From a virus (taxonomy: Duplodnaviria; Heunggongvirae; Uroviricota; Caudoviricetes): a stretch of DNA of 6,407 nucleotides. The translations under genes and the position numbers were made by a program. How positions within the stretch are numbered: the first letter of the stretch is position 1; the number at the start of each line of letters is the position of its first letter. The stretch spans positions 1 through 6,407 of IMG/VR virus record IMGVR_UViG_2737471848_000023; one strand, 5' to 3'. The notes below the pieces were generated by a model, which was not told the DNA's origin, searched no databases, and worked only from the letters and a program-made list of their open reading frames with translations. Below are positions 1 through 6,407 of the stretch, one piece after another.

Positions 1-153
1 GACGGATAACCACATCGTCGCCGTTCCGTCATCGGCCTGGCTGCACGGCAGGGGGATAGCCATACCCGCCATCGCCATTTGTGTACCCTTGCTGGTGGTC
101 TTTAACTGTGGGTCAGCCACCAGCCGCCCGTAAGCGGCTATCTGTGCTGTCAT
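1..153 (-). CDS. SSB-like OB-fold protein, N-terminal 51 codons only (gene continues beyond window start)
   Basis: ATG at 153..151 preceded by GGAGAGGTG; open to position 1 with no stop. Hand translation MTAQIAAYGRLVADPQLKTTSKGTQMAMAGMAI...TATMWLSV fits the N-terminal pattern of SSB-type OB folds (hydrophobic-G-R/N-L-x-x-D-P-x-L-R/K...T..G). Start overlaps the upstream stop as ATGA. Not in the ORF track because it is truncated. Confidence 0.5.
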   Translation of the reverse strand, partial: MTAQIAAYGRLVADPQLKTTSKGTQMAMAGMAIPLPCSQADDGTATMWLSV

Positions 154-464
154 GATTTCACCTCTCCGGTTTTAACGTTGATGGTTGTTACCTGTTCCGC
201 TTCGGCAATCTCCCGTTCTGTCAGCGTGGCAAAGTTTGCAGCTGCCGTTGTCATGAATGCGCTTATCAGGTCGGGATGTGCTTTCGCGTATCCTTCCCCC
301 GCATGGCGGTCTATCGTTCTGATTGCCACCTTTAAGGTATGCTCAGTCATGTCTAACGCTTTATATTTTGGCTCTGTTCTGTCTCTGCGAATTTTGGTCA
401 TTTGTCGCCCCTGATTCATGTTTTCGGCTGGCATGTTTGTTAAGTGATTTTGATGTATGCGCAT
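150..464 (-). CDS. hypothetical protein (104 aa)
   Basis: ORF from track; ATG at 464 preceded by GAGGGGGTG about 8 nt upstream; stop TGA at 152..150 overlaps next start (ATGA). No motif I recognise. Internal ATGs at 434, 419 and 401 are alternative starts. Confidence 0.55.
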   Translation of the reverse strand: MRIHQNHLTNMPAENMNQGRQMTKIRRDRTEPKYKALDMTEHTLKVAIRTIDRHAGEGYAKAHPDLISAFMTTAAANFATLTEREIAEAEQVTTINVKTGEVKS

Positions 465-510: not shown

Positions 511-736
511 CCCTCTACCCATCTACCCGAATGCTCATCATGTCAGTAATGGCGAGGCTTTCAGCGGGTAGATAGCTTTTGGGGCTCCTCTACCTGCCGT
601 CTACCCTGCTACCTGAAACTGATAAAATCAGGTAGAAGAGGTAGAGAGCTTTTATTAGCCTTCTACCTGGCCCTCTACCCACTTATCATGTTGAATAATA
701 TGTATTTATTTCATTCGGGTAGATGGGGTAGAGGGC
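511..736. repeat. iteron array, candidate replication origin
   Basis: At least 11 copies of the 6-bp core TCTACC / GGTAGA in both orientations: forward at 514, 522, 589, 600, 662, 674 (plus GCTACC at 608), reverse at 567, 631, 640, 718, 727. Adjacent same-orientation copies are 8-12 bp apart. An AT-rich segment (681..716) lies inside the array. Sits immediately 3' of the primase/helicase gene. Confidence 0.6.
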
Positions 737-748
737 TTTTACAAAAAA

Positions 749-2503
749 TTATAAAAACGCGTCGCAATCGTCTGTTGTAATTGCGTTGGTCTGCGTTACT
801 CCCTTAACTTTTCGCGTAATATATTCATGCCCGTAAACTTTCGCCGCTGGCTTCATGGCCTTGCTGAACTCAGCCACGTTTAGCGGTTTGCTCCTGCCTG
901 CGTATGCCATAAACGCCAGATAGACGCGGTAAAGGCTGTTCCTGGTCGTGTACTTCACTGAATCACCACCGCCACCCATCATCAGGCCGCGCGCTTCCTC
1001 CAGAAAATTCAGGAACTGGCAAAACTCAATAACCGGATCCGTCTGTTGCTTTATTGCCAGTGCTTCATCACCGTCACGCTGTTCCAGTAGTAAAGCCCTC
1101 GCCTTTTCAGGGTCGGTAAAGTTCGCCAGCAAGCGGCGGATAATCACAGGGATTTCAGCCGCGACCTTCTCCGGCAAATCCTTGTCCTTTTCTGCCTCGC
1201 TAACGATATTGTCAAAGCGAAAAATAACCCGACGACGTGCCACGCCTCCGGCCCGTTCGGTGAATATCATCGGGTTGTTGTTGGTCGCCAGCACCACCGC
1301 CCTGATTACCGCCGTGAAACGCTTTTCATATTTCGGGTTAATTTCCACGGGGTCGCCGCCCGTGATTTTCTTGATGCCCGTTCCTTCGCCTGTATATTTC
1401 GGCTGGTCAGCCAGGACGATAAGACGACTCCCGACAACCTGCGCGCGCCCTCCTGCATCATCGAGTGATGTCATCTCCGCGCTTACGGTGTTCTGTTTCC
1501 CTGCCAGAAGGCTGGCTATGTGTGTGAATGTACTTTTACCGCTCCCGCCGTCTCCGGTGGCCTCAATAAACATCTGCCAGTCGTACCGGTTCGCCATAAT
1601 CATGTACAGCGCGGCACATATACGCATCATCTTGCGCGGGTCTTTTCCGGCTGCGTGCTCAAGCCATTTATGAAAGTTTGGCGCGTTGTCGCGAATGTTC
1701 TCCCCTGGTGCTGGTGGCGTGTACTCAATGCCGTTGTGCGTGGTGATCCAGTTCTCCGGCGTGTGCGGGGAAAATTCCCCCGTTTTCAGGTCAAGCGCAC
1801 CATTGGCGAACGGCAGCAAATCGCCGGACGGCTCCCCCATTGGTTCGGCAATAACTTTTAACGCTTCAACGGCGTTATTGATCACGCGTTTGCTGAAAGT
1901 GGCCCTGTGCTCTGAATAGATCGCCACCATTTCGCGGCTAAGTTCCATTGTGCTGACCGGACACCATACCCCGCCGCGCCATACGTGAACGATTTCACTT
2001 TCCGGATGCACACAAACGCCATCAAATCGACCAGCAAGCATCTGTGCGCGTTCACTGTCCGCCATCTGCGAAAGTTGCGCCTTTTGCTTTACCGGAAGCT
2101 CAACGACCAGACCTTCAGAAAGATTCTGGCGCTCACGGGCCAGATATTCGCGCCAGTTCTCCACCTTCTGACCGTGCATTCCTTCGGGGTAAAATTTTGC
2201 ATCCTGTACGCCTGCCGCCGCCAGCTTCTGACCAATCTTTTTGGTCTCCACCAAGTCCAGTTCTCCTGCCTGGTACAGCCTTACGCGTTTTTTTCCATCA
2301 GGAACAATTTGCAGTGCATAAAGTTCGGCAAGCTGATTTGGCCCAAGCCACACAGGAGGCACATTATCGCCGGATGCGGGGCCGTCCTGCTCCTGCCACT
2401 GTTTTGCATGTGCCCACGCATCACTACCCGCGAAAATAATCACCTCTGTGTCTTTGTGTTTTATTCCGCGTGGCTGTTTTTTTACGTTCGGTGCCAGTTT
2501 CAT
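749..2503 (-). CDS. replication protein: primase/helicase with P-loop NTPase domain (584 aa)
   Basis: Long ORF with AGGGG 7 nt before the ATG at 2503. Walker A GDGGSGKST at about aa 317-325 (nt about 1529..1555) and Walker B-like LIVLAD at about aa 361-366, consistent with the SF3/P4-alpha/D5 family of phage-plasmid primase-helicases. N-terminal roughly 300 aa is a separate domain. Start overlaps the upstream stop (ATGA at 2503..2500). Confidence 0.9.
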   Translation of the reverse strand: MKLAPNVKKQPRGIKHKDTEVIIFAGSDAWAHAKQWQEQDGPASGDNVPPVWLGPNQLAELYALQIVPDGKKRVRLYQAGELDLVETKKIGQKLAAAGVQDAKFYPEGMHGQKVENWREYLARERQNLSEGLVVELPVKQKAQLSQMADSERAQMLAGRFDGVCVHPESEIVHVWRGGVWCPVSTMELSREMVAIYSEHRATFSKRVINNAVEALKVIAEPMGEPSGDLLPFANGALDLKTGEFSPHTPENWITTHNGIEYTPPAPGENIRDNAPNFHKWLEHAAGKDPRKMMRICAALYMIMANRYDWQMFIEATGDGGSGKSTFTHIASLLAGKQNTVSAEMTSLDDAGGRAQVVGSRLIVLADQPKYTGEGTGIKKITGGDPVEINPKYEKRFTAVIRAVVLATNNNPMIFTERAGGVARRRVIFRFDNIVSEAEKDKDLPEKVAAEIPVIIRRLLANFTDPEKARALLLEQRDGDEALAIKQQTDPVIEFCQFLNFLEEARGLMMGGGGDSVKYTTRNSLYRVYLAFMAYAGRSKPLNVAEFSKAMKPAAKVYGHEYITRKVKGVTQTNAITTDDCDAFL

Positions 2504-2799
2504 TTTTTACCCCTGAATACGTTAAGCATCTTTTTTATTTCCTGAATATTGGCGCGTGCTTTCTCCCTGCTGGTTGGCTTACTGCGGGGCGCTGCCTGTA
2601 CCAGAGAAAAATCACGCCGGAACTGATAAACAGGCATCACGCAATCATATTCGTAACCTTCACGGCGGTAGGTTACGCGCCGTTCTTCCACGCCCTTAAT
2701 CATTACCGTGCCGCCGTACTGGTCGCGGTAAATATCACCGCGCGTAAATTTAGGGTGAGTGTTGCCACTGGCAGTTAAGCCAGAATATTTAAGTTTCAT
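2500..2799 (-). CDS. hypothetical small protein (99 aa)
   Basis: ORF from track; GGAG about 10 nt upstream of ATG at 2799; stop overlaps primase start. Protein is basic and protein-like in composition. No family assigned. Confidence 0.7.
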   Translation of the reverse strand: MKLKYSGLTASGNTHPKFTRGDIYRDQYGGTVMIKGVEERRVTYRREGYEYDCVMPVYQFRRDFSLVQAAPRSKPTSREKARANIQEIKKMLNVFRGKK

Positions 2800-3622: not shown

Positions 3623-3839
3623 GGTGCACCTCCTGCACATCAGCCATGATAATTTTTCCGGCCTTATCCAGTGCCTGATCGGCTTTTAGCTGCACAAATG
3701 CTAAATAATGGAAGATGCATTCTGATTCTCTGGCTGCGTGTTTATGCGCCCTGTCAGCAATAACAGAAATATCAATCAGCGCGTGCATCAGTGTAGTGAG
3801 TGCGGCGGCGGTTGCGTCCGGTGTGGTTTTATTGTGCAT
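3615..3839 (-). CDS. hypothetical small protein (74 aa)
   Basis: ORF from track; AGGGGGAA 5 nt upstream of ATG at 3839; 11-nt overlap with the upstream gene; stop overlaps next start. Confidence 0.6.
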   Translation of the reverse strand: MHNKTTPDATAAALTTLMHALIDISVIADRAHKHAARESECIFHYLAFVQLKADQALDKAGKIIMADVQEVHHA

Positions 3840-4035
3840 AGGTTTCCCCCTGACGAATACGGGCAGCGAATACCATCACGCAGCCAGCCGGAGATTGCTG
3901 GCGTGCTTCCTGTTCGCTGGTGGCCTCAATGGTAATCACGCGCGGTTGTGCCGTGCTCAGGGCGATAAAACGCCAGATGTATTTATTCAGGTTGTGCGAG
4001 TCCCGCCCTTGCGGGTGTGTGGTATGATTTCTCAT
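3829..4035 (-). CDS. hypothetical small protein (68 aa), first gene of the leftward operon; tentatively Icd-like
   Basis: C-terminal part of track ORF 3829..4623. ATG at 4035 with GAGG about 7 nt upstream (GATTATCGAGGCAGCT ATG). Sequence MRNHTTHPQGRDSHNLNKYIWRFIALSTAQPRVITIEATSEQEARQQ... The Icd-like resemblance is from memory only and unverified. Confidence 0.5.
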   Translation of the reverse strand: MRNHTTHPQGRDSHNLNKYIWRFIALSTAQPRVITIEATSEQEARQQSPAGCVMVFAARIRQGETYAQ

Positions 4036-4132
4036 AGCTGCCTCGATAATCTTGCTATCGTTGGTGGTTAGAAGCCCTGCGAGTGGTAACGACACTTGCG
4101 GGGCTTTGCATTTATGCACCTTGATAACCTCA

Positions 4133-4168
4133 AGGTGTGGCCCACTATATTCTTTAGGTGTGGCCCAC
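4133..4168. promoter_or_regulatory. two perfect 13-bp direct repeats AGGTGTGGCCCAC, each containing the palindrome GTGGnCCAC; candidate operator
   Basis: Exact copies at 4133..4145 and 4156..4168, 23 bp start to start (about two helical turns). They lie between the divergent RHH gene and the leftward operon and overlap the predicted -10 and spacer/-35 of the leftward promoter. Confidence 0.55.
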
Positions 4169-4173
4169 GTCAA
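4144..4173 (-). promoter_or_regulatory. candidate sigma70 promoter for the leftward small-ORF/primase operon
   Basis: On the minus strand: -35 TTGACG (4173..4168), 18-bp spacer, -10 TATAGT (4149..4144). Predicted start near 4137 gives an about 100-nt leader before the ATG at 4035. Prediction by eye only. Confidence 0.4.
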
Positions 4174-4175
4174 GA

Positions 4176-4204
4176 GTTTTATTTGTGCTTTTTCTGTGTA
4201 TACT
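4176..4204 (+). promoter_or_regulatory. candidate promoter for the RHH gene
   Basis: -10 TATACT at 4199..4204 immediately preceded by TG; the -35 region (about 4176..4181) is a poor match, so this may depend on an activator or be mis-assigned. Back to back with the leftward promoter. Confidence 0.3.
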
Positions 4205-4234
4205 GTCCCCCACCAATCCAACAGAGGAATAGAA

Positions 4235-4414
4235 ATGGCAACGGGTACAACAAACGCAAAATCACAAGCTCTAAAGGCTCGTGTACCACACGAAATAGTA
4301 AACGAGATGGAATTAGTGAAAGAATCAGGCGAAAGCACATCACAATTCATCATTGCGTCAATGCAAGGCGAGATCAAACGCCGCCAGCGCCGCAAGGCCA
4401 AAGAGCAGGAATAG
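4235..4414 (+). CDS. small ribbon-helix-helix (CopG/Arc-like) DNA-binding protein (59 aa)
   Basis: ATG at 4235 with GAGGA 6 nt upstream; stop TAG at 4412..4414. Sequence MATGTTNAKSQALKARVPHEIVNEMELVKESGESTSQFIIASMQGEIKRRQRRKAKEQE has the RHH pattern: a short beta strand (KARVP), helix, G-x-S/T turn (SGESTSQ), second helix, basic tail. The only plus-strand gene in the window. Confidence 0.6.
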   Translation: MATGTTNAKSQALKARVPHEIVNEMELVKESGESTSQFIIASMQGEIKRRQRRKAKEQE

Positions 4415-4502
4415 CCCACCAGCAAGCCAGCACACTGAGCACATTGCCCACCAGACAGCAAATCGCTATGATGTTCGGGCTTATGTTTAGTGTTTTCCCA
4501 TT

Positions 4503-4530
4503 GGCGACCGCCACAGGTCGCCTTTGTTTT
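4503..4530 (+). terminator. intrinsic terminator (plus-strand orientation)
   Basis: Perfect 7-bp GC-rich stem GGCGACC (4503..4509) / GGTCGCC (4516..4522) with 6-nt loop, followed by TTTGTTTT (4523..4530). On the minus strand the hairpin is followed by AATGGGAAAACA, so it is not obviously a terminator for alpA. Confidence 0.6.
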
Positions 4531-4549
4531 ATGTGTCATATGCTCCCCT

Positions 4550-4759
4550 TTACGCTGCCTTACCTGCATTAATACGATCCCTGCTTTTAACCCATTCCAT
4601 AACCTCAGACTTAACCCAGCCAACAGAACGACCGCCGAGACTGATACGTGAGGGGAAGCGGCCCTGCTTTTCCATCTCGTAACGAGTTGTGCGGCAAACG
4701 CCTGTTAGCTCTCTGCATTCTTTTTCGCGGATTACACGATCTTCATTTATTTCGCGCAT
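4550..4759 (-). CDS. alpA: AlpA-family transcriptional regulator (69 aa)
   Basis: ORF from track; AGGA 6 nt upstream of ATG at 4759. Sequence VIREKECRELTGVCRTTRYEMEKQGRFPSRISLGGRSVGWVKSEVMEWVKSR matches the AlpA pattern (..TG.sr.T.Y......FP....LG.RsVGW...Ev.eWv..R). Lies directly downstream of int on the same strand. Confidence 0.9.
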   Translation of the reverse strand: MREINEDRVIREKECRELTGVCRTTRYEMEKQGRFPSRISLGGRSVGWVKSEVMEWVKSRDRINAGKAA

Positions 4760-5168: not shown

Positions 5169-6407
5169 TCAAGAATTTTGGGAGTAAATTCGCGGGGTCA
5201 TAACAACGATTTTTTCATCATTGTTCTGGAGAAGCTCGAGACGCTCACCCCATAGATTAAGAGCGTCACGTTTTGCATCAAGATAACGGGAGTGATTATA
5301 GACTCGTTGCATTCCTGGCAACTGGTGCGCGGTTAGCTGCTCCACTACATGAGGATCAACGCCTAAATCGTTCAGCATCGTTGTAAACGTGTGCCGGATG
5401 TCGTGCAACGTCCATGGGGCTTGATTAATGCGTCTGTGTGCCGTTCTTCCGTACTCTGATACGGATGATTGCCCTTTCAGTTCTCCGAGCAATAATCCCG
5501 TGTGCCTGTTCTGCTCCACCAGCTTCATGACAAACGGCAAGATCGCTTCCGGTATTGGCCTGAATATTGCTACCTTCGTTTTGCTGTGTTCTTTCGGCAC
5601 GGTCCAGAGCATTTCTTTAAAATCCCATTCCTGGACCTCAGAGCGTCTTAGCTCAGTGGTACGACATCCGAAGACAATCAGGAGGCGAATCAGGGCGCTG
5701 TAGTACGGTGGGTAAATTTTTTCATCAAGGGCGCGTAGTAATTCCCCAAGCTCCTTGTTTGTTAGTACGCGCTCGCTTATTTCTGCTTTTTTCCCAACAT
5801 CACCGACAACCATATCATCGAGAACGTTGGTAATTGCGTAGCGTCGTTTTCGGCAGTACTTAAGCGCCTGTTTGCACACCTGTAGCAAAAATCCGGCTGA
5901 TACCGGATTACGCTTAGCAAGCTGGTCAAAACAGGCCAGCCAGTGGCGTAGCTCGCATTTTTCCAGTGGCATAGCGCCAATCTGGCTAATTATGTGTTTA
6001 TTGATCCGGCTTTTCAGTGATTCGTAGTCAGTGCGCTTTTCCTTTGCGTACGATTCAAGCCAGTAAGTGAGAGCTTCCTTAACCGTCACGGGGGCTAAAG
6101 CGTCCTGTACAGCATGATTAAGTTCATAGCGCGGATTTTTCCCCTCAGCCAGCCAGGCGCGACACTGTGCCGCTTTTTCCCTGGCAGCTTTCAGGCTCAG
6201 ATCGGGATAATTGCCCAGCCTCAGACGTTCCGGTGATATCTGCCTACCAGTTCCGGCCCTGTAAGTGAAATACCAGGTTAACAGGCCATTGGTTGAATGC
6301 CTTACGCTAAGGTTGCCACCATCATTAAAAAAGGTGCTTTTTGTGGTTGGTGATCCGCTTAATTTTCGTAAAAGAGTGTCGCTAAGTCTATGAATTGCCC
6401 TGCTCAT
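5169..6407 (-). CDS. int: tyrosine site-specific integrase (412 aa)
   Basis: Full ORF with ATG at the last 3 nt of the window. N-terminal arm-type domain (NDGGNLSVRHSTNGLLTWYFTYR...RLRLGNYPDLSLKAARE). C-terminal catalytic region with HDIRHTFTTML (H-x-x-R) and the tyrosine region YNHSRY. Overall layout matches P4/CP4-type integrases. Confidence 0.95.
   Translation of the reverse strand: MSRAIHRLSDTLLRKLSGSPTTKSTFFNDGGNLSVRHSTNGLLTWYFTYRAGTGRQISPERLRLGNYPDLSLKAAREKAAQCRAWLAEGKNPRYELNHAVQDALAPVTVKEALTYWLESYAKEKRTDYESLKSRINKHIISQIGAMPLEKCELRHWLACFDQLAKRNPVSAGFLLQVCKQALKYCRKRRYAITNVLDDMVVGDVGKKAEISERVLTNKELGELLRALDEKIYPPYYSALIRLLIVFGCRTTELRRSEVQEWDFKEMLWTVPKEHSKTKVAIFRPIPEAILPFVMKLVEQNRHTGLLLGELKGQSSVSEYGRTAHRRINQAPWTLHDIRHTFTTMLNDLGVDPHVVEQLTAHQLPGMQRVYNHSRYLDAKRDALNLWGERLELLQNNDEKIVVMTPRIYSQNS

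What the first reader, a model, noticed from the sequence alone, without database searches (positions are those of the whole stretch)
749..2503. Compact primase/helicase, shorter than P4 alpha
The 584-aa protein has a central SF3-type P-loop (Walker A at about aa 317, Walker B at about aa 361), leaving about 300 aa N-terminal and about 200 aa C-terminal. P4 alpha is substantially longer (about 777 aa, from memory). The N-terminal domain may be a divergent primase or toprim-like module, and the C-terminal region is the likely iteron-binding domain.
Basis: partly seen in the sequence, partly recalled or inferred. Interest (0 to 1): 0.4.

Follow-up and report, generated by a model that had tools for sequence, protein, structure and literature searches.

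The report
Satellite replication helicase lacking a primase
This gene is the already-studied replication initiator of a common E. coli phage-satellite island: an origin-binding ring helicase related to phage P4's alpha protein, in which the primase part is replaced by a small domain of unknown function, so its usual label 'DNA primase' is not supported by its sequence.

Summary
It is 93% identical to Pri-Rep (c1495) of the E. coli satellite EcCICFT073, whose pri-rep plus ori segment is published as a working replicon.

- **Relation to P4 alpha:** residues 141-573 align with P4 alpha 324-756 at 40% identity. This covers the D5_N collar, the SF3 ATPase and the C-terminal origin-binding domain solved as 1KA8.
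- **Origin:** twelve RGGTAGA iterons around an AT-rich core lie at 514-732, just 3' of the gene.
- **Missing primase:** P4 alpha's zinc ribbon and Toprim primase (its first 323 aa) are absent. They are replaced by a ~130-aa domain with no Pfam or NCBIfam family.
- **The N-domain fold:** a confident model gives a four-stranded alpha/beta fold. Its best structural neighbours are DnaG-type Toprim domains, but only weakly, and no sequence homology is detectable. Where Toprim has Glu and DxD, this domain has near-invariant Ala-Gly, and it has no cysteine.
- **A shuffled module:** the same head domain is fused to four different replicative ATPases in enterobacterial satellites, each with its own iterons.
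- **No primase elsewhere:** none is recognisable in the whole element.

Verdict: a known gene. The helicase and origin-binding reading is supported; the primase reading is not.

The parts
749..2503 (-). pri-rep gene, 584 aa: replication initiator and SF3 helicase of an EcCICFT073-type satellite (PICI)
   Evidence: ORF. 93% identical to CFT073 c1495 / WP_000761835.1. phrog_864, E 5e-172. 40% identical to P4 alpha 324-756.
2114..2503 (-). N-terminal domain, aa 1-130: uncharacterised alpha/beta module that occupies the position of the primase. Weakly Toprim-like in fold, without the Toprim catalytic residues.
1658..2047 (-). D5_N domain, aa 153-282: the N-terminal collar tier of the helicase ring
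   Evidence: Pfam PF08706, E 1e-14. Aligns with P4 alpha 336-467. The equivalent region forms the N-tier of the SaPI5 PriRep5 hexamer (PMC9371898).
1253..1558 (-). SF3 ATPase core, aa 316-417. Walker A GDGGSGKS is at 1532-1555 and Walker B LIVLAD at 1406-1423. Motif C (VVLATNN, aa 403-409) lies within this span; the RRR arginine finger (aa 423-425) lies just beyond it.
   Evidence: Pfam DUF5906, E 5e-10. TIGR01613, 109.5 bits against a cut-off of 108.7. PDB 7OLA (SaPI5 PriRep5), E 4.5e-15, over aa 195-432. Motifs translated. G317, G322, K323, S324, N409, R423 and R424 are invariant in alignment A4.
776..1045 (-). C-terminal origin-binding (winged-helix) domain, aa 487-576
   Evidence: PDB 1KA8, the P4 origin-binding domain, E 8e-6 over aa 488-576. 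Pfam Pox_D5, E 3.5e-4. Continuous alignment with P4 alpha up to residue 756. Translation checked.
514..732 (.). Replication origin: 12 copies of RGGTAGA (11 GGTAGA plus 1 GGTAGC) in both orientations, arranged in sets around an AT-rich core at 680-712 (80% A+T)
   Evidence: All 11 GGTAGA in the window lie here; 1.45 are expected by chance and 0 of 200 shuffles reach 11. Positions and AT profile. The iteron cores are conserved with CFT073 while the spacers diverge. The layout matches the published Gram-negative PICI origin (PMC6092414).

Best explanation
The gene encodes the Pri-Rep replication initiator of an EcCICFT073-type phage satellite (PICI) integrated between cspD and clpS.

Shown or strongly inferred from homology:
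- The C-terminal winged-helix domain reads the RGGTAGA iterons that lie directly 3' of the gene.
- The D5_N collar and SF3 ATPase assemble into a self-loading hexameric helicase that melts the AT-rich core and unwinds the island. P4 alpha and SaPI5 PriRep5 work this way.

Inferred:
- The protein is not a primase of any recognised type. The DnaG-type primase of P4 alpha has been replaced by a ~130-aa alpha/beta head domain. That domain may be a degenerate Toprim but lacks the metal-binding Glu/DxD residues and the zinc ribbon.
- Primers therefore most likely come from the host (DnaG, possibly through a host primosome assembled on the unwound origin).
- The head domain most likely acts as a non-catalytic adaptor or regulatory module that does not depend on origin sequence.
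For: - **Identity and published function.** The protein is 93% identical to EcCICFT073 c1495, and the origin is conserved. In the paper, pri-rep plus ori maintains a plasmid in DH5alpha without a helper phage, and deleting pri-rep lowers island transfer about 100-fold (PMC6092414).
- **Helicase and origin-binding part.** E 4e-111 and 40% identity to P4 alpha 324-756. PDB hits to 7OLA and 1KA8. Walker A and B confirmed. Iterons far above chance.
- **No primase.** P4 alpha's Zn_Ribbon_Prim (aa 30-66) and Toprim (aa 210-299) have no counterpart. The N-domain matches no family, no PDB sequence and no Toprim profile. It has A25-G26 and A79-G80 at the strand ends and no Cys.
- **No primase elsewhere in the element.** No gene of the complete ~10-kb element carries a primase Pfam family. 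The same holds for the sister elements.
- **The head domain does not depend on origin specificity.** It is fused to D5_N/SF3, DUF927, AAA_25 and VapE-like bodies. These sit in the same int-alpA-rep slot. Different iterons follow two of them, the VapE-like and AAA_25 types: AGGTGTCAT and AAAGTGAGG.
Against: - No biochemistry exists for this protein's N-domain.
- Three acidic residues (E20, D46, E115) are nearly invariant, so an unconventional active site cannot be excluded.
- In all three structure searches, DnaG-type primases are at or near the top among annotated matches. A derived but still active Toprim is therefore conceivable.
- The assignment of A25-G26 and A79-G80 to the Toprim catalytic positions rests on secondary-structure correspondence, not on a residue-level superposition.
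- Host DnaG involvement is an inference from absence, not an observation.
- The full-length model was too poor to use (pLDDT 59).
Confidence: 0.6

Rival explanations
1. The N-terminal domain is an active, minimal or non-canonical primase. The protein would then be a true bifunctional primase-helicase, as its name says, using a compact Toprim-derived fold with a rearranged acidic site (for example E20, D46, E115).
Confidence: 0.15
2. The N-terminal domain has nothing to do with priming. It is a regulatory or helper-phage interaction module, for example autoinhibition, sensing of the helper, or interference with or aid to helper replication, grafted onto whatever replicative ATPase the satellite carries.
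For: It is a portable head on four unrelated ATPase bodies, found in the satellite loci examined here. It evolves faster than the rest of the gene (omega about 0.3 against 0.05) and has a separate history (dS 0.48-0.57 against 0.16-0.23). That pattern is typical of interaction surfaces in conflict. A related PICI is reported to aid helper-phage replication, although the paper attributes this to alpA_1, not to the primase gene (PMC11773190).
Against: Pri-rep plus ori replicates without any helper phage, so no helper factor is required for the basic function. No interaction data exist. An omega of 0.3 still indicates purifying selection.
Confidence: 0.2
3. The protein is only an origin-binding initiator that recruits the host DnaB helicase. 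Its P-loop would serve loading rather than fork unwinding.
For: There is no direct helicase assay for this protein. E. coli DnaG normally needs DnaB (general knowledge).
Against: All SF3 motifs are intact and conserved. The close relative P4 alpha is described as the prototype of the phage replicative SF3 helicases (PMC4889955), and the structural homologue PriRep5 unwinds DNA in vitro (PMC9371898).
Confidence: 0.05

Closest known systems
Pri-Rep (c1495, WP_000761835.1) of the E. coli phage-inducible chromosomal island EcCICFT073
   Same: Same length (584 aa) and 93% identity. Same operon: DUF4222, pri-rep, ori, small ORF, ssb. Same GGTAGA iteron cores. Its pri-rep plus ori is a published autonomous replicon (PMC6092414).
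   Different: The N-domain is a different allele: 77% identity against 98% for the rest of the protein, with two- to three-fold higher dS. The island sits at a different site (cspD-clpS rather than ycfD-phoQ) and has a different late region, a ClpP-protease/capsid fusion.
Phage P4 gp-alpha (777 aa), a DnaG-type primase + D5-family SF3 helicase + winged-helix origin-binding domain
   Same: Collar, ATPase and origin-binding domain are collinear and 40% identical (alpha 324-756). The origin-binding domain matches 1KA8. Both replicons are iteron-based.
   Different: Alpha's first 323 aa (zinc ribbon, EGYATA/Toprim primase) are replaced by an unrelated ~130-aa domain. The iteron sequence differs: RGGTAGA here, against P4's annotated 8-bp type 1 repeats. 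The origin lies immediately 3' of the gene, rather than split into ori and crr.
SaPI5 PriRep5 (PDB 7OLA), a staphylococcal self-loading SF3 helicase
   Same: Sequence match over aa 195-432 (E 4.5e-15). It has three tiers: collar, ATPase, and a C-terminal domain required for ori binding (PMC9371898). The origin lies directly downstream of the gene.
   Different: PriRep5 is a 790-residue protein whose residues 1-322, the 'Pri' part of its name, were too flexible to resolve. The Gram-negative protein has only the 130-aa head. Identity outside the ATPase is low.
DnaG-type Toprim domains (Aquifex and Bacillus DnaG, T7 gp4 primase fragment, Twinkle)
   Different: The scores are in the grey zone and no sequence signal exists. 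The catalytic Glu and DxD are replaced by Ala-Gly. There is no zinc-binding domain and no flanking subdomains of the RNA-polymerase core.

Membership tests
D5 / P4-alpha family of SF3 replicative helicases | SF3 P-loop ATPase with Walker A, Walker B, motif C and an arginine finger | tested here: met
   GDGGSGKS at aa 317-324 and LIVLAD at 361-366. VVLATNN at 403-409 and RRR at 423-425 are read from the sequence and invariant in alignment A4. DUF5906, E 5e-10. TIGR01613, 109.5 bits against a cut-off of 108.7.
D5 / P4-alpha family of SF3 replicative helicases | D5_N collar domain directly N-terminal to the ATPase | tested here: met
   PF08706, E 1e-14, aa 153-282. Collinear with P4 alpha.
D5 / P4-alpha family of SF3 replicative helicases | ATP-dependent DNA unwinding as a hexamer | not testable with these tools
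   Inferred from P4 alpha and PriRep5 (PMC4889955, PMC9371898). The full-length model was too poor to use.
P4-alpha-type bifunctional primase-helicase | N-terminal zinc ribbon (PF08273) | tested here: not met
   Present in P4 alpha at aa 30-66. Absent here. There is no Cys in aa 1-130.
P4-alpha-type bifunctional primase-helicase | Toprim domain with an EGYATA-type Glu and a DxD motif | tested here: not met
   No Toprim family hit, even at E<=10, in 23 family members. hhalign probability 0.2-1.5%. Near-invariant A25-G26 and A79-G80 occupy the strand ends.
Toprim fold superfamily (N-domain only) | Four-stranded parallel beta-alpha fold superposable on Toprim | tested here: inconclusive
P4 origin-binding winged-helix domain (Pox_D5 / 1KA8) | Sequence homology of the C-terminal ~90 aa | tested here: met
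   1KA8, E 8e-6, aa 488-576. PF03288, 21.4 bits, exactly at the cut-off. Contiguous with the 40%-identity alignment to alpha.
P4 origin-binding winged-helix domain (Pox_D5 / 1KA8) | Specific binding to the cognate iterons | not testable with these tools
   An iteron cluster is present directly downstream. Binding itself was not assayed.
Gram-negative PICI replicon (Fillol-Salom et al. 2018) | A unidirectional int, alpA, pri-rep gene order, with the ori immediately 3' of rep made of iteron sets flanking an AT-rich region | tested here: met
   int at 5169-6407, alpA at 4550-4759 and pri-rep at 749-2503, all on the minus strand. Iterons at 514-732 around the 80% A+T core at 680-712. Criteria are taken from PMC6092414.
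Gram-negative PICI replicon (Fillol-Salom et al. 2018) | Helper-phage-dependent induction and packaging | not testable with these tools
   Shown for the 93%-identical EcCICFT073 system, not for this allele (PMC6092414).

The most novel reading that the evidence does not exclude
The ~130-aa head is a previously undescribed, catalytically dead descendant of a Toprim primase. Enterobacterial satellites would keep it and shuffle it among four different replicative helicases because it recruits the host priming machinery (DnaG, or a DnaB-DnaG primosome or SSB) to a foreign helicase. That would make it a portable 'primase-adaptor' module. The 'Pri' of Gram-negative PICIs would then not be a primase at all.
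Probability: 0.25. Interest if true: 0.6.

Novelty: already known. Interest (0 to 1): 0.3.

Why it matters
This gene is annotated as 'DNA primase' in the public databases, and all the satellite papers read here call it the PICI 'primase' (pri) or 'DNA primase/helicase'. The name traces to TIGR01613, 'P4-family primase, C-terminal domain'. That model in fact covers the helicase.

If the protein has no primase activity, three things follow. Replication of these very common E. coli and Shigella satellites depends on host priming. The conserved head domain becomes a concrete candidate for the link between a foreign SF3 helicase and the bacterial replisome. And profile sets that detect satellites by a 'primase' component are really detecting helicases.

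The practical result is a re-annotation and a small, testable question. It is not a new system.

Tried and rejected
- **Family scans of the N-domain.** Pfam and NCBIfam scans of the N-domain, and Pfam scans of all 23 aligned family members at E<=10, gave nothing recurrent.
- **Profile search of the N-domain against all PDB sequences.** Only chance hits appeared (Cas2, E 0.15).
- **hhalign of the N-domain profile.** Against full P4 alpha the probability was 1.5%, on a region outside the Toprim. Against a purpose-built profile of P4-alpha-type Toprim domains the probability was 0.2%. MAFFT and inspection by eye suggest a collinear alignment: IFAGSDAW with IAEGYATA, RLYQAG with IVLAADRD, ENW with GDW. 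I do not rely on it, because the profile test fails.
- **Foldseek against AFDB50.** The library was unavailable.
- **Full-length AlphaFold model.** The 8-sequence alignment was too shallow (pLDDT 59, pTM 0.40), so the model was not used.
- **DUF4222 as an obligate partner of the N-domain.** Rejected. It precedes the D5-type and AAA_25-type genes but not the VapE-type or the Klebsiella satellite gene.
- **Rfam scan of the window.** Only a chance miRNA-family hit inside the palindromic origin.
- **Promoter and terminator scan of the origin region.** Nothing found.
- **A first guess at the CFT073 coordinates** landed in a lambdoid prophage.

Full report
**Observation.** The minus-strand ORF at 749-2503 encodes 584 aa starting with ATG. 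P4 alpha is indeed 777 aa. Pfam finds D5_N (aa 153-282, E 1e-14), the SF3 P-loop family DUF5906 (316-417, E 5e-10) and Pox_D5 (487-575, E 3.5e-4). NCBIfam finds TIGR01613, 'phage/plasmid primase, P4 family', just above its cut-off, over aa 229-495. That span is the helicase part, not a primase.

**What the element is.** The window carries, all on the minus strand:
- a tyrosine integrase (5169-6407);
- AlpA (4550-4759);
- several small ORFs;
- a DUF4222 gene whose stop overlaps the start of the gene of interest;
- the gene itself;
- a small ORF (150-464);
- the start of an ssb gene.

A YlcI/YnfO gene lies on the opposite strand. Sequence matching the window is found in 1891 of 5426 complete E. 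coli genomes, and the exact protein is on record in 377 blocks of public assemblies. In those genomes the island is about 10 kb and sits between cspD and clpS. It ends with a ClpP-protease/major-capsid fusion gene.

The protein is 93% identical to c1495 of E. coli CFT073. That gene is the 'pri' or Pri-Rep gene of the phage-inducible chromosomal island EcCICFT073 (supplement of PMC6092414; coordinates confirmed). For that island it was shown that pri-rep plus the downstream ori maintains a plasmid in DH5alpha without a helper phage. Deleting pri-rep lowers island transfer about a hundred-fold (PMC6092414). So the gene itself is already known and functionally characterised as a replicon.

**The C-terminal three quarters.** BLASTP against P4 alpha aligns aa 141-573 with alpha 324-756 at 40% identity, E 4e-111, with two gaps. 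Searching PDB sequences finds SaPI5 PriRep5 (7OLA) over aa 195-432 (E 4.5e-15). It also finds the crystal structure of the P4 origin-binding domain (1KA8) over aa 488-576 (E 8e-6). The PriRep5 paper describes a three-tier hexamer of N-terminal collar, SF3 ATPase and C-terminal domain. The C-terminal domain is required for ori binding and for ATPase activity (PMC9371898). A survey of viral replication proteins describes P4 alpha as a DnaG-type primase fused to a D5-family SF3 helicase, with a C-terminal winged-helix origin-binding domain (PMC4889955).

**The origin.** All eleven GGTAGA hexamers in the window fall within 514-732, immediately 3' of the stop codon. Chance would give 1.45, and none of 200 shuffles reaches eleven. 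With one GGTAGC variant there are twelve RGGTAGA units in both orientations, grouped in sets around a 33-bp core of 80% A+T at 680-712. The iteron cores are invariant between this window, CFT073 and strain RM12581, while the spacers differ in CFT073. [quoted passage not shown]

**The N-terminus: no recognisable primase.** P4 alpha owes its primase activity to a zinc ribbon (aa 30-66) and a Toprim domain (aa 210-299). Neither has a counterpart here. Residues 153-282 are the helicase collar, so only aa 1-130 remain as a candidate.
- This segment matches no Pfam or NCBIfam family.
- Its one PHROG match is to a family of unknown function (phrog_2850).
- A full HMMER scan of 1.84 billion cluster representatives finds only 79 clusters. 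In nearly all of them the match starts at or near the protein's own N-terminus.
- None of 23 aligned members hits any Toprim family, even at E<=10.
- A profile of the family finds nothing among PDB sequences.
- hhalign against P4 alpha, or against a profile of P4-alpha-type Toprim domains, gives probabilities of 1.5% and 0.2%.
- The segment contains no cysteine, so it has no zinc-binding module.

**Fold of the N-domain.** AlphaFold2 with the 23-sequence alignment gives a confident model (pLDDT 89.2, pTM 0.83). It has four strands and helices in beta-alpha order: b1 20-25, a1 29-43, b2 51-53, a2 55-59, b3 73-78, a3 84-96, b4 101-105, a4 118-129.

**Comparative context.** The same head domain is fused to four different replicative ATPase bodies:
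- D5_N/SF3/Pox_D5, as here;
- DUF927;
- AAA_25;
- VapE-like.

The VapE-type and AAA_25-type genes sit in the same int-alpA-...-rep slot of enterobacterial satellite-like islands. Each is followed by its own iteron cluster, AGGTGTCAT and AAAGTGAGG respectively. The head is therefore independent of origin specificity and of the type of motor. No gene in any of these islands, or in the complete island that carries this exact protein, has a primase Pfam family.

Within the close E. coli alleles the head also behaves as a separate module. It is 77% identical to the CFT073 allele, against 98% for the rest of the protein. Its dS is 0.48-0.57 against 0.16-0.23, and its omega is about 0.3 against 0.05.

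**Mechanism.**
- *Shown by homology and by the published work on the 93%-identical protein:* the protein binds the iterons next to its own gene through its C-terminal domain, assembles as an SF3 ring helicase and drives autonomous replication of the island.
- *Inferred:* it is not itself a primase. Primers come from the host, either DnaG or a host primosome assembled on the unwound, SSB-coated origin; the island brings its own SSB. The head domain is a non-catalytic adaptor or regulatory module.

I put about 0.6 on this package. The helicase and origin part is close to certain; the statements about the head domain are much less so. The rivals are a cryptic non-canonical primase (0.15), a role unrelated to priming such as helper-phage interaction or regulation (0.2), and a loader-only role for the ATPase (0.05).

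**Novelty and verdict.** The gene is an ortholog of a characterised PICI replication protein, so the finding is already known as an object. What the satellite papers I could search do not state is that the 'primase' of Gram-negative PICIs has no recognisable primase domain. Nor do they note that its place is taken by an orphan head domain shared across four helicase families. That is a useful annotation correction and a small testable question. Interest is 0.3.

Noticed in passing
window 2114-2503 (-) compared with 749-2113 (-): The N-domain is a mosaic segment of the gene. It is 77% identical to the CFT073 and RM12581 alleles, against 98% for the rest of the protein. Its dS is 0.48-0.57 against 0.16-0.23, and its dN/dS is about 0.3 against about 0.05. 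This suggests recombinational exchange of the head domain and weaker constraint on it.
   Followed up: partly
window 4124-4173 (-): A promoter-like site, TTGACG-18-TATAGT (10 of 12 matches), is overlapped by two direct copies of GTGGGCCACACCT. The repeats are conserved in EcCICFT073 (L004:3720-3755). This is a candidate operator and promoter for the icd-to-pri-rep operon.
   Followed up: partly
L007:8990-9295 and L009:8412-8730: Sister satellites carry the same N-domain on a VapE-like body or an AAA_25 body. Each has its own iteron cluster directly downstream of the gene: AGGTGTCAT and AAAGTGAGG respectively.
   Followed up: partly
window 2500-2799 (-): The DUF4222 gene overlaps the pri-rep start codon (ATGA), which suggests translational coupling. 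A DUF4222 gene also precedes the AAA_25-type N-domain gene in L009. It does not precede the VapE-type gene or the Klebsiella satellite gene.
   Followed up: yes
window 1-153 (-) and 150-464 (-): An ssb gene starts at 153, overlapping (ATGA) the stop of the phrog_1231 ORF, and runs off the window start. The island therefore brings its own SSB next to the origin. In strain RM12581 this ssb is a pseudogene with an internal stop.
   Followed up: no
window 3829-4623 (-): The 264-aa TTG ORF is probably not a gene. It spans the position of the annotated Icd-like gene (3829 to about 4035) and the region of the opposite-strand YlcI/YnfO gene (aa 70-111 of ORF 4052-4414 +).
   Followed up: partly
window 749-2503; NCBIfam TIGR01613: The 'DNA primase' product name given to this protein family appears to come from TIGR01613, 'primase, P4 family, C-terminal'. 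That model matches aa 229-495, the helicase region. The label is transitive, not evidence of primase activity.
   Followed up: yes
L005:5995-8130 (Klebsiella phage P12620-1, PQ569648.1): A 106-kb record deposited as a phage genome contains an N-domain/DUF927 fusion protein of 711 aa in an otherwise unannotated region. It may be a satellite co-assembled with, or inserted in, the phage record.
   Followed up: no
window 656-737 (+): The only Rfam match at E<=0.1 is a plant miRNA family (E 0.031, below gathering score) inside the palindromic origin. This is a chance hit. No C4 or IsrK-type immunity RNA was detected, although such RNAs are reported for some Gram-negative PICIs.
   Followed up: yes
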